Source: Escherichia coli (GTDB lineage Bacteria; Pseudomonadota; Gammaproteobacteria; Enterobacterales; Enterobacteriaceae). From it: a stretch of DNA of 64,000 nt. Positions 46,727-48,396 of this stretch are shown here, in pieces (position 1 is the first letter of the stretch; each line of letters opens with the position of its first letter). Made by a program: the position numbers and the translations under genes. The stretch lies in assembly GCF_003334315.1 (NCBI RefSeq), contig NZ_QOWR01000001.1. One strand, given 5' to 3'. Below the pieces are notes generated by a model. It was not told the origin of the DNA, searched no databases, and saw only the letters and a program-made list of their open reading frames with translations.

Positions 46727-47905
46727 ATGAGTAATATTGTTTACCTGACAGTAACGGGAGAACAACAAGGAAGCATCTCCGCAGGTTGTGGGACTTCTGA
46801 GTCTACAGGTAATCGTTGGCAGAGCGGGCATGAGGATGAAATATTTACATTCTCACTCTTAAATAATATTAATAATACGGGGCTTGGTTCACAGTTCCAT
46901 GGTATAACATTTTGTAAATTAATTGATAAAAGCACTCCATTATTTATTAATTCCATTAACAATAATGAACAATTATTTATGGGATTTGACTTCTATCGAA
47001 TAAATAGATTTGGTAGATTGGAAAAGTATTATTATATACAACTAAGAGGCGCTTTTTTATCGGCTATTCATCACCAGATCATTGAAAACCAACTGGATAC
47101 AGAAACAATAACTATTAGTTATGAATTTATCCTCTGTCAACATCTTATCGCAAATACCGAGTTCAGCTATTTGGCACTCCCTGAAAATTATAACCGTTTG
47201 TTTTTACCAAATTCAAAAAACCAAACAAATAATCGTTTCAAAACGTTAAACAGCAAAGCTATTGGCAGGCTACTTGCTGCTGGTGGCGTATACAATGGGA
47301 ACATTGAAGGATTCAGAGATACTGCGGAAAAACTGGGTGGAGATGCAATAAAAGGCTATGATCAAATACTAAATGAAAAAACAGCGGGCATAGCGATAGC
47401 AACAGCATCTATTCTTTTAACAAAGCGTTATAATGTTGATACATATACAGAAATAAATAGTTACTTAGGCAAACTTAGAGGTCAACAAAAACTTCTTGAT
47501 GGTATAGACATAATAGAAATAATATACATTAAGAGACCTTCAAAAGACTTAGCTAACTTACGAAAGGAGTTTAATAAAACTGTAAGAAAAAATTTTCTTA
47601 TCAAACTTGCAAAAACCTCCGAAGCATCTGGAAGATTCAACGCCGAAGACCTTTTAAGAATGAGAAAGGGCAATGTTCCTCTAAATTATAATGTTCACCA
47701 TAAACTATCTCTAGATGATGGTGGTACTAATGATTTCGAAAATTTAGTATTAATCGAAAACGAACCATATCATAAAGTTTTTACTAACATGCAATCACGA
47801 ATAGCTAAGGGAATATTAGTAGGTGAAAGCAAAATCACTCCTTGGGCCATTCCATCTGGCTCAATTTATCCTCCCATGAAAAATATTATGGACCACACAA
47901 AATGA
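46727..47905 (+). CDS. yhhZ: Hcp-like protein with C-terminal HNH-type nuclease motif (putative polymorphic toxin)
   Basis: 392-aa ORF; N-terminal ~160 aa Hcp-like; C-terminus NYNVHHKLSLDDGGTNDFENLVLIENEPYH matches the HNH/Endo VII pattern HH..GG..N..N..H. Confidence 0.85.
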   Translation: MSNIVYLTVTGEQQGSISAGCGTSESTGNRWQSGHEDEIFTFSLLNNINNTGLGSQFHGITFCKLIDKSTPLFINSINNNEQLFMGFDFYRINRFGRLEKYYYIQLRGAFLSAIHHQIIENQLDTETITISYEFILCQHLIANTEFSYLALPENYNRLFLPNSKNQTNNRFKTLNSKAIGRLLAAGGVYNGNIEGFRDTAEKLGGDAIKGYDQILNEKTAGIAIATASILLTKRYNVDTYTEINSYLGKLRGQQKLLDGIDIIEIIYIKRPSKDLANLRKEFNKTVRKNFLIKLAKTSEASGRFNAEDLLRMRKGNVPLNYNVHHKLSLDDGGTNDFENLVLIENEPYHKVFTNMQSRIAKGILVGESKITPWAIPSGSIYPPMKNIMDHTK

Positions 47906-48396
47906 TGACTAAAACCCAAATAAATAAATTAATAAAAATGATGAATGATTTAGACTATCCATTTGAAGCACCGCTCAAGGAATCATTTATTGAAAGTATA
48001 ATCCAAATAGAATTTAATTCTAATTCAACTAATTGCCTGGAGAAGTTATGTAATGAAGTTAGTATTCTTTTTAAGAATCAACCTGATTATCTTACTTTTT
48101 TAAGAGCAATGGATGGATTCGAAGTTAATGGATTACGATTATTTAGCCTCTCGATTCCAGAACCTTCAGTTAAAAACCTTTTTGCCGTAAATGAATTTTA
48201 TAGAAATAATGATGATTTCATAAACCCTGATCTACAAGAACGGTTAGTGATCGGGGATGATAGCATTTCAATATTTACTTATGACATTAAAAGTAACTTT
48301 TTTGAAATTAGAGATAATATTGGCACAGAAAATATATTCAGTTCGTTTAGTGATTTCTCTTCATTCTTAAACGAAATCATGGACAGTTGTTCATAA
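47902..48396 (+). CDS. yrhA: Putative cognate immunity protein (SUKH/Smi1-Knr4-like), start-stop coupled to yhhZ
   Basis: Track ORF 47842..48396; ATG at 47902 overlaps the yhhZ TGA (ATGA); segments PDYLTFLRAMDGFEVNGLRLFSL and LVIGDDSISIFTYD resemble SUKH immunity proteins. Confidence 0.65.
   Translation: MMTKTQINKLIKMMNDLDYPFEAPLKESFIESIIQIEFNSNSTNCLEKLCNEVSILFKNQPDYLTFLRAMDGFEVNGLRLFSLSIPEPSVKNLFAVNEFYRNNDDFINPDLQERLVIGDDSISIFTYDIKSNFFEIRDNIGTENIFSSFSDFSSFLNEIMDSCS

What the first reader, a model, noticed from the sequence alone, without database searches (positions are those of the whole stretch)
47895..47910. ATGA start-stop overlap coupling yhhZ to yrhA
The yrhA ATG (47902) overlaps the yhhZ TGA (47903-47905). 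Translational coupling of this kind is typical of toxin-immunity pairs, where immunity protein must be made with the toxin. This supports reading yrhA from this ATG rather than the longer upstream frame in the ORF track.
Basis: seen in the sequence. Interest (0 to 1): 0.4.

Follow-up and report, generated by a model that had tools for sequence, protein, structure and literature searches.

The report
Ordinary stop-start overlap, toxin-immunity genes
The four-base ATGA overlap between the E. coli toxin gene yhhZ and its immunity gene yrhA is real and marks the correct start of yrhA, but such overlaps are common in bacterial operons and this one is already in the reference annotation.

Summary
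Window 47902-47905 reads ATGA: the yhhZ stop TGA (47903-47905) overlaps an ATG (47902) that opens a 164-codon yrhA ORF. A second ATG at 47905 gives a TGATG one-base overlap as well.

- The rival TTG at 47842 is a rare synonymous SNP. Its exact 59-mer occurs in 159 E. coli genomes, against 2688 with CTG.
- In CTG genomes the junction ATG is the first start codon in the frame.
- Homologues in other genera are 159-166 aa, with in-frame stops just upstream.
- RefSeq already annotates the 4-nt overlap.

The toxin-immunity reading holds. YhhZ is Hcp plus an HNH nuclease (published class Hcp-ET1). YrhA models as a SUKH/SMI1-KNR4 immunity fold. The pairing is conserved across at least 10 genera or lineages.

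"Typical of toxin-immunity pairs" is overstated. Six of 32 same-strand pairs nearby share ATGA, five of them in glg/ugp/liv operons. Most YrhA-family loci have a 15-20 nt spacer with a Shine-Dalgarno (SD) motif instead. The E. coli overlap comes from an 8-residue lineage-specific toxin tail.

Coupling is plausible, given the very weak SD, but untested. Already known; low interest.

The parts
46727..47905 (+). yhhZ (RefSeq 'tssD'), 392 aa: N-terminal Hcp tube domain fused to a C-terminal HNH nuclease toxin (Hcp-ET1-type effector)
   Evidence: ORF. TIGR03344 Hcp1 scores 118 bits against a cut-off of 58.9 over residues 1-147. Pfam T6SS_HCP E 2.5e-11 and a weak HNH hit, E 0.013, at residues 322-343. 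PDB Hcp hits at E 2e-11. RefSeq annotation.
47690..47779 (+). HNH (His-Me finger) catalytic motif of YhhZ, VHHK...DFENL...EPYHK
   Evidence: Weak Pfam HNH hit. HH, N and H are invariant in an alignment of 10 toxin C-termini from different genera. YhhZ is placed in His-Me finger group 32 by PMC5714182.
47879..47902 (+). Lineage-specific C-terminal tail of YhhZ (about 8 residues, KNIMDHTK) that carries the toxin frame across the former spacer to the yrhA start
   Evidence: 7 of 10 aligned toxins end at IYPL[K/N]*. E. coli and C. youngae run 8-9 residues further and stop in ATGA, and one metagenomic locus (L026) runs on to an 11-nt overlap. The tail varies within E. coli (DHTK or EPTK).
47890..47892 (+). 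Remnant of the family's AGGA Shine-Dalgarno (TGGA here), 9 nt upstream of ATG 47902
   Evidence: The best anti-SD duplex is only -3.0 kcal/mol, the weakest of 13 family junctions and of the 5 neighbouring ATGA pairs. Relatives carry AGGA or GGAGGG at the matching place.
47902..47905 (+). ATGA stop-start overlap: yrhA ATG 47902-47904, yhhZ TGA 47903-47905
   Evidence: Conserved in 10 of 10 E. coli loci and in C. youngae. Annotated as a 4-nt overlap in RefSeq.
47905..47907 (+). Second in-frame ATG (codon 2 of yrhA), forming a TGATG one-base overlap; an alternative reinitiation codon
   Evidence: All E. coli YrhA sequences begin MMTKTQ.
47902..48396 (+). yrhA, 164 aa: SUKH/SMI1-KNR4-fold immunity protein (YrhA family, probably ETI1)
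47842..47844 (+). TTG that opens the longer 184-aa frame in the ORF track; a rare synonymous SNP of yhhZ (Pro CCT instead of CCC), not a conserved start
   Evidence: Exact 59-mer counts are 159 (TTG) against 2688 (CTG) E. coli genomes. 9 of 9 other loci have CTG. With CTG there is no ATG, GTG or TTG between the upstream stop and the junction ATG (L003).
48491..48646 (+). yrhD, a small ORF (51 aa) of unknown function inside the same AT-rich island
   Evidence: RefSeq annotation mapped from L001. No family hits. It is a pseudogene in several lineages.
48846..49130 (+). yrhB, 94 aa, Imm35-family (PF15567) protein: a second, orphan immunity-type gene in the island
   Evidence: ORF. RefSeq 'YrhB family protein'. 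Precomputed Pfam Imm35 on the identical-length product.
46500..49000 (.). AT-rich island (GC 0.30-0.36, against 0.46-0.57 in the flanks) holding yhhZ-yrhA-yrhD-yrhB, between yhhY and ggt
   Evidence: H-NS-bound 'promoter islands' are reported inside yhhZ and yrhA in K-12 (PMC3661553).

Best explanation
yhhZ-yrhA is a two-gene effector-immunity operon inside a small, horizontally acquired AT-rich island. [quoted passage not shown] YrhA is its cognate SUKH-fold immunity protein and starts at the junction ATG (47902, or the adjacent 47905), giving a protein of 164 (or 163) residues. The 184-residue frame from TTG 47842 is an artefact of a rare SNP. The ATGA overlap arose in the E. coli / C. youngae branch of the family: the toxin lost its ancestral stop (…IYPL[K/N]*) and now reads about 8 codons further, through what is a 15-20 nt spacer bearing a Shine-Dalgarno (SD) motif in most relatives. 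The SD remnant in E. coli is very weak and no RNA structure hides the start. The most likely way YrhA is made is therefore that ribosomes finishing yhhZ at TGA reinitiate on the overlapping or adjacent AUG (termination-reinitiation). Immunity protein would then be produced whenever toxin is translated. Shown here: the sequence, the start-codon assignment, the protein families and the evolutionary origin of the overlap. Inferred: the coupling itself, and that YrhA neutralises YhhZ.
For: The sequence and ORFs are.

Start assignment:
- The NCBIfam YrhA model aligns from residue 4.
- 17 homologues from E. coli, Citrobacter, Klebsiella, Leclercia, Dryocola and others start within 2 residues of one another.
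- Relatives have in-frame stops 0-24 nt upstream of their ATG in several loci.
- TTG 47842 is a minority allele, 159 against 2688 genomes.
- RefSeq annotates yrhA with a 4-nt overlap in every intact locus fetched.

Toxin: Hcp domain and invariant HH-N-H residues. The Hcp-ET1/ETI1 literature is, and the source strain 55989 has this very locus.

Origin of the overlap.

Coupling is plausible: the SD duplex is -3.0 kcal/mol, the weakest of the family and of the neighbouring ATGA pairs. The junction has no significant fold (z 0.17). No convincing terminator or enriched promoter signal lies between the genes. Four of 5 native E. coli ATGA pairs tested by Huber et al. were coupled (PMC6728339).
Against: Nothing here measures translation, so coupling is an inference.
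- In Huber et al., removing the SD reduced reinitiation in 4 of 5 E. coli pairs. A near-absent SD could therefore mean poor reinitiation rather than reliance on it.
- Most family members use a spacer with an SD, so an overlap is not required for this toxin-immunity pair to work.
- The module is decaying in many E. coli. K-12-type strains have IS1 in yrhA while yhhZ stays intact. A 651-sequence cluster has a frameshift in codon 5 of yrhA. Strain N58 has a stop inside yhhZ.
- H-NS-bound promoter islands suggest the locus is largely silent.
- That YhhZ/YrhA equals the published Hcp-ET1/ETI1 rests on strain and architecture, not on a sequence comparison. The primary paper was not available.
- The YrhA model is of moderate confidence (pLDDT 64), and Pfam gives no SMI1_KNR4 hit.
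Confidence: 0.78

Rival explanations
1. yrhA initiates at the second ATG (47905-47907), using the TGATG one-base overlap, so the mature protein starts MTKTQ...; the ATGA is then just the neighbouring codon.
For: Both ATGs are in frame and conserved in 10 of 10 E. coli loci. TGATG is the other common coupling overlap (PMC6728339 abstract). The family model aligns only from residue 4, so it does not discriminate. C. youngae has a single Met at this position.
Against: In C. youngae the single ATG is the one in the ATGA configuration. RefSeq and all gene callers sampled use the first ATG, with one 246-aa Logan prediction starting MTKTQ (P0005). No data distinguish the two codons.
Confidence: 0.3
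2. The overlap is an incidental by-product of the toxin losing its stop codon. YrhA is made by independent de novo initiation, or from a transcript starting inside yhhZ, as many colicin immunity genes are. Coupling contributes little.
For: Most relatives have a 15-20 nt spacer with an SD. The YhhZ tail is short and variable (DHTK or EPTK; an unrelated sequence in C. youngae). One of 5 E. coli ATGA pairs (bioBF) initiated de novo despite a weak SD. The start lies in an unstructured, A-rich region, which favours standalone initiation. Promoter islands are reported within yhhZ and yrhA.
Against: The SD is almost absent (-3.0 kcal/mol). The promoter-like site count is not above shuffled expectation (14 against 12.8). 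The ATGA is strictly kept across E. coli phylogroups although the adjacent tail codons vary.
Confidence: 0.3
3. yrhA starts at the upstream TTG 47842 and encodes a 184-aa protein that overlaps the last 21 codons of yhhZ.
For: The frame is open from 47842 in this window. An AGGTG-like sequence lies upstream, with a -6.7 kcal/mol duplex.
Against: The TTG is a rare allele, 159 against 2688 genomes, and 9 of 9 other loci have CTG. The SD-like element is 13 or more nt away. No homologue carries the extension, and relatives have stops in that frame. None of the 120 proteins listed is 184 aa; the only upstream-extended prediction, the 190-aa P0009, starts at an ATG 26 codons upstream. The family HMM gives no support for extra N-terminal residues.
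Confidence: 0.02
4. The locus is a silenced, decaying remnant, so the overlap has no current function because neither protein is made at meaningful levels.
For: It is an AT-rich island with H-NS-bound promoter islands. IS1 sits in yrhA in K-12-type strains although yhhZ is intact. There is a frameshift lineage, a stop inside yhhZ in N58 and yrhD pseudogenes. About 17% of E. coli genomes lack the region or keep only its ggt-proximal end.
Against: Both ORFs are intact in this window and in most genomes: 3758 of 5426 cover at least 80% of the query. The catalytic residues are invariant. Hcp-ET1 was reported to be an active, T6SS2-delivered toxin in STEC.
Confidence: 0.2

Closest known systems
[quoted passage not shown] 2017, Virulence 8:1189; seen here only through reviews and a 2024 preprint)
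   Same: [quoted passage not shown] E. coli 55989, named as an Hcp-ET1 strain, carries exactly this yhhY-yhhZ-yrhA-yrhD-yrhB-ggt locus with the 4-nt overlap.
   Different: The published sequences were not compared directly because the primary paper is not held. Whether this window's strain has the T6SS2 needed for delivery was not examined.
ATGA / TGATG overlapping gene pairs coupled by termination-reinitiation (Huber et al. 2019, PMC6728339)
   Same: Both are co-directional pairs with a 4-nt stop-start overlap, the commonest overlap class. Neighbouring examples in the same region are glgB-glgX, ugpC-ugpQ, ugpA-ugpE, livM-livG and livH-livM.
   Different: The SD here is much weaker (-3.0 kcal/mol, against -5.8 to -10.9 for those neighbours). 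Both ATGA and TGATG are present at once. Coupling has not been tested.
SUKH (SMI1/KNR4) superfamily immunity proteins of polymorphic nuclease toxins (Zhang, Iyer & Aravind 2011, PMC3113570), e.g. B. subtilis YobK
   Different: There is no Pfam SMI1_KNR4 sequence match. NCBI treats it as a separate YrhA family, NF038335. The structural model is only of moderate confidence.
Bacteriocin-immunity operons with demonstrated translational coupling (e.g. the sakacin P operon of Lactobacillus sakei, cited in PMC12548453)
   Same: The toxin gene is followed directly by the immunity gene, and coupling is invoked to make sure immunity accompanies toxin.
   Different: The toxin and immunity families and the organism are different. 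Here coupling is only inferred, and the family shows that a spacer with an SD works equally well.

Membership tests
Overlapping gene pair coupled by termination-reinitiation | Co-directional genes whose stop and start codons overlap (ATGA or TGATG) | tested here: met
   ATGA at 47902-47905 and TGATG at 47903-47907. Conserved in 10 of 10 E. coli loci.
Overlapping gene pair coupled by termination-reinitiation | Both genes lie on one transcript, with no terminator or obligatory promoter between them | tested here: inconclusive
   Consensus scans show no enrichment of promoter-like sites (14 against 12.8 expected). The only + strand terminator-like hairpin (47842-47864) is within chance expectation (2 found, 1.5 expected). 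No transcript data were available.
Overlapping gene pair coupled by termination-reinitiation | Translation of the downstream gene depends on ribosomes reaching the upstream stop | not testable with these tools
   This needs a premature-stop reporter experiment. Indirect pointers only: SD of -3.0 kcal/mol and no occluding structure.
Hcp-ET (Hcp with C-terminal extension toxin) T6SS effectors, subtype Hcp-ET1 | N-terminal Hcp/TssD tube domain | tested here: met
   TIGR03344 scores 118 bits against a cut-off of 58.9. Pfam PF05638 E 2.5e-11. PDB Hcp3 and Hcp hits.
Hcp-ET (Hcp with C-terminal extension toxin) T6SS effectors, subtype Hcp-ET1 | C-terminal HNH / His-Me finger nuclease domain with intact catalytic residues | tested here: met
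   The Pfam HNH hit is weak (E 0.013). However, HH...N...H is invariant in 10 orthologues, and the protein is classified in His-Me group 32.
Hcp-ET (Hcp with C-terminal extension toxin) T6SS effectors, subtype Hcp-ET1 | Cognate immunity gene immediately downstream | tested here: met
   A YrhA-family gene follows the toxin at -11 to +20 nt in 15 non-E. coli loci and in all E. coli loci. The exception is L022, where the called toxin ORF ends early.
Hcp-ET (Hcp with C-terminal extension toxin) T6SS effectors, subtype Hcp-ET1 | DNase toxicity neutralised by the immunity protein; T6SS-dependent delivery | not testable with these tools
   Reported for Hcp-ET1/ETI1 in STEC, according to reviews and a preprint. 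Not tested for this allele.
SUKH / SMI1-KNR4 immunity superfamily | SUKH alpha+beta fold | tested here: met
SUKH / SMI1-KNR4 immunity superfamily | Sequence-profile match to Pfam SMI1_KNR4 / SUKH families | tested here: not met
   No Pfam hit with E <= 0.001 on the 184-aa translation. The PDB profile search gave only spurious hits. Some UniRef entries nevertheless name it SMI1/KNR4.
NCBIfam NF038335 YrhA family | Score above the curated cut-off over the full length | tested here: met
   125.5 bits against a cut-off of 55, with residues 4-163 on model positions 2-149 of 150.

The most novel reading that the evidence does not exclude
In the E. coli / C. youngae branch, loss of the ancestral toxin stop together with decay of the AGGA Shine-Dalgarno switched immunity expression. 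It went from independent SD-driven initiation (the state in most of the family) to obligatory termination-reinitiation. YrhA could then be made only by ribosomes that have just finished a YhhZ chain. That would be an evolved fail-safe tying immunity output to toxin output, and a natural pair of 'coupled' and 'uncoupled' orthologous junctions for testing what coupling buys a toxin-immunity module.
Probability: 0.2. Interest if true: 0.35.

Novelty: already known. Interest (0 to 1): 0.1.

Why it matters
It matters little beyond annotation hygiene. The analysis confirms that the reference start of yrhA is right and that the longer ORF-track frame comes from a rare SNP. It also shows that a stop-start overlap should not be read as a signature of toxin-immunity pairs. 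One modestly useful by-product is that the YrhA family has both overlapped and spacer-plus-SD junctions between orthologous toxin and immunity genes. These could serve as a natural comparison for how much translational coupling contributes to self-protection.

Tried and rejected
- An exact-match population count of the junction itself (window 47866-47950) gave no match, because BLAST's low-complexity filter masked the A-rich sequence. I used 10 fetched E. coli loci instead.
- The primary Hcp-ET paper (Ma et al. 2017) is not held by DOI or by PMC id. The link to Hcp-ET1/ETI1 therefore rests on reviews, a preprint, and finding the locus in strain 55989. The first coordinate guess in 55989 missed.
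- Pfam on YrhA gave nothing. The PDB sequence-profile search gave only spurious antibody and SATB1 hits. PADLOC gave nothing for any of the four island proteins.
- Folding the junction RNA gave no structure beyond shuffled controls (z 0.17), so a 'structure hides the start until the upstream ribosome melts it' model has no support.
- The promoter and terminator scan showed no enrichment, so neither an internal yrhA promoter nor a terminator between the genes can be claimed.
- TTG 47842 as the start was considered and rejected.
- The 152-aa annotated form (P0034) was considered as evidence for an internal start. It is rejected as a general start because it results from a 1-nt deletion in that lineage.

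Full report
**1. Observation**

The window reads ...GGACCACACAAAATGATGACTAAAACC... at 47890-47916. The 392-codon yhhZ ORF (46727..47905) stops at TGA 47903-47905. ATG 47902-47904 overlaps it by four bases (ATGA) and is in frame with the ORF that runs to 48396.

- A second in-frame ATG at 47905-47907 shares its A with the stop, so the junction is ATGA and TGATG at once.
- An ATG before a TGA stop is cheap. It needs only an A, which is about 41% of bases in this stretch.

What makes the overlap meaningful is the gene that starts there, not its improbability.

**2. What the two genes are**

YhhZ has a full Hcp/TssD tube domain: TIGR03344 at 118 bits against a cut-off of 58.9, Pfam T6SS_HCP at E 2.5e-11, and PDB Hcp hits. 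Its C-terminal domain gives only a weak Pfam HNH hit (E 0.013). Even so, the HH...N...H residues are invariant across ten orthologues from different genera. Jablonska et al. place YhhZ in His-Me finger group 32 (PMC5714182).

The toxin domain plus a YrhA gene is found behind an Hcp domain in E. coli, C. youngae and C. koseri. It is found behind a DUF8093 domain in Klebsiella, Dryocola and Leclercia. That is the cassette-swapping typical of polymorphic toxins.

Reviews and a preprint describe an orphan Hcp-HNH effector, Hcp-ET1, and its downstream immunity protein ETI1 in E. coli O104:H4 and 55989. Strain 55989 carries this very yhhY-yhhZ-yrhA-yrhD-yrhB-ggt locus. I could not read the primary paper, so the identity is probable, not proven.

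The four genes sit in a 2.5-kb AT-rich island, GC 0.30-0.36 against about 0.5 in the flanks. Shavkunov and colleagues list this island as H-NS-bound promoter islands (PMC3661553).

**3. Which start codon**

The rival start TTG 47842 falls on a synonymous site of a yhhZ proline codon (CCT against CCC).
- Among complete E. coli genomes, the exact 59-mer with TTG occurs in 159. The same 59-mer with CTG occurs in 2688.
- All nine other E. coli loci I fetched have CTG, from 100% down to 96.4% identity and including a K-12 derivative.
- With CTG there is no ATG, GTG or TTG between the upstream in-frame stop and the junction ATG (L003).
- Homologues in other genera are 159-166 aa and begin within two residues of the E. 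coli Met.
- In several of those loci the frame is closed by a stop 0-24 nt upstream of the ATG.
- RefSeq/PGAP annotates yrhA with the 4-nt overlap in every intact locus examined.

The sequence cannot decide between ATG 47902 and ATG 47905.

**4. Is the overlap special to toxin-immunity pairs? No.**

In the 49-kb stretch of strain 55989 that is collinear with window 22620-64000, six of 32 same-strand adjacent pairs have an ATGA overlap. Five of the six are glgB-glgX, ugpC-ugpQ, ugpA-ugpE, livM-livG and livH-livM. Huber et al. report that about 15% of co-directional pairs overlap in most prokaryotic groups, with 4 nt the commonest overlap (PMC6728339).

Within the YrhA family the overlap is the exception:
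- E. coli and C. youngae have -4.
- Kluyvera, C. freundii, Atlantibacter and E. asburiae have a 15-nt spacer with AGGA.
- Franconibacter, Klebsiella, Dryocola and Leclercia have 16 nt.
- C. koseri has 20 nt.
- One metagenomic locus has -11, after loss of its stop.

Seven of ten aligned toxins end at ...IYPL[K/N]*. The E. coli protein continues for about eight more residues (KNIMDHTK), which vary even within E. coli, until it meets the TGA inside ATGA. The overlap therefore arose by stop loss and read-through of the former spacer.

**5. How it probably works**

The remnant of the family's SD (TGGA at 47889-47892) pairs with the anti-SD at only -3.0 kcal/mol. Relatives give -3.5 to -9.8, and the five neighbouring ATGA pairs give -5.8 to -10.9. 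The junction RNA is no more structured than shuffled controls (z 0.17). There is no enriched promoter or terminator signal between the genes.

The most economical mechanism is that ribosomes terminating yhhZ reinitiate at the overlapping or adjacent AUG. Four of five native E. coli ATGA pairs behaved this way. This remains an inference. In the same study, SD removal usually lowered reinitiation, and one weak-SD pair initiated de novo. Independent initiation on the unstructured A-rich leader therefore stays a live rival.

**6. State of the module in the population**

The region is absent or reduced to its ggt-proximal end in about 17% of complete E. coli genomes. Elsewhere it shows decay:
- K-12-type strains have IS1 after about codon 131 of yrhA, with yhhZ intact.
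- A cluster of 651 sequences has a 1-nt deletion in codon 5 of yrhA, so PGAP calls a 152-aa product from Met13.
- Strain N58 has a stop inside yhhZ.
- yrhD is a pseudogene in several lineages.

This fits an often silent, orphan effector module.

**7. Verdict**

The start-codon conclusion is correct but already annotated. The toxin-immunity reading is supported by independent evidence and by the literature. The claim that the overlap is characteristic of such pairs is not supported. Coupling is plausible but untested.

Novelty: already known. Interest: low.

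Noticed in passing
window 47842: This window carries a rare T allele that creates the TTG and the long ORF-track frame. 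The exact 59-mer occurs in 159 E. coli genomes, against 2688 with C. A K-12/BW25113-type record also has C, so the window is not from K-12 even though it is 99.9% identical here.
   Followed up: yes
L014:1603-2745 (K-12-type record NZ_CP062248); corresponds to window about 48295: In K-12-type strains IS1 interrupts yrhA after about codon 131, while the HNH toxin gene yhhZ stays intact. Either the truncated YrhA still protects, or YhhZ is not expressed or not toxic at native levels. The window has an uninterrupted yrhA.
   Followed up: partly
L012:1966-2001 (equivalent to window 47902-47940): A large E. coli cluster (651 member sequences, P0034) has a 1-nt deletion in the A-run of yrhA codons 4-5 (ACTAAAACC to ACTAAACC). 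The junction ATG then gives only MMTKPK*, and PGAP calls a 152-aa YrhA from the internal ATGATG (Met13/14).
   Followed up: partly
window 48846-49130 (yrhB): yrhB carries a precomputed Pfam Imm35 (PF15567) hit, so the island holds a second, orphan immunity-type gene with no adjacent toxin. In Leclercia the equivalent neighbourhood holds Imm70 and Imm63 genes (L025).
   Followed up: no
L023, L024, L025 (Klebsiella MAG, Dryocola, Leclercia), toxin genes at about 340-1484: The same HNH toxin domain and YrhA-type immunity gene are attached to a DUF8093 N-terminal domain instead of Hcp. This implies a different delivery route for the same toxin-immunity cassette.
   Followed up: partly
window 48394-48646 (yrhA stop to yrhD): A few single-contig predictions (P0001, P0002, P0005, P0033; 234-247 aa) fuse yrhA to yrhD through a frameshift near the yrhA stop. 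The yrhD frame is therefore open across the whole 95-nt gap. These may be assembly errors or hint that yrhD is a remnant of a longer gene.
   Followed up: no
window 47842-47864: A terminator-like hairpin plus T-run (TTGGGCCATTCCATCTGGCTCAA TTTATCC) lies inside the end of yhhZ, just upstream of the junction. The scan found 2 such sites against 1.5 expected by chance, so it is probably not functional.
   Followed up: partly
L003 (CABHOW010000200.1, labelled 'uncultured Flavihumibacter sp.' MAG): A 4-kb contig in a Bacteroidota MAG is 99% identical to the E. coli yhhZ-yrhA region. This is almost certainly E. coli contamination of the bin.
   Followed up: no
L020:1-49001 (E. coli 55989), collinear with window 22620-64000: Between glpD and glgP, strain 55989 has four extra genes (three hypothetical genes and a PstS-family gene, about 3.4 kb). 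The window aligns to L020 1-5765 and 9204-44553 with only about 265 nt between those blocks, so it seems to lack them.
   Followed up: no
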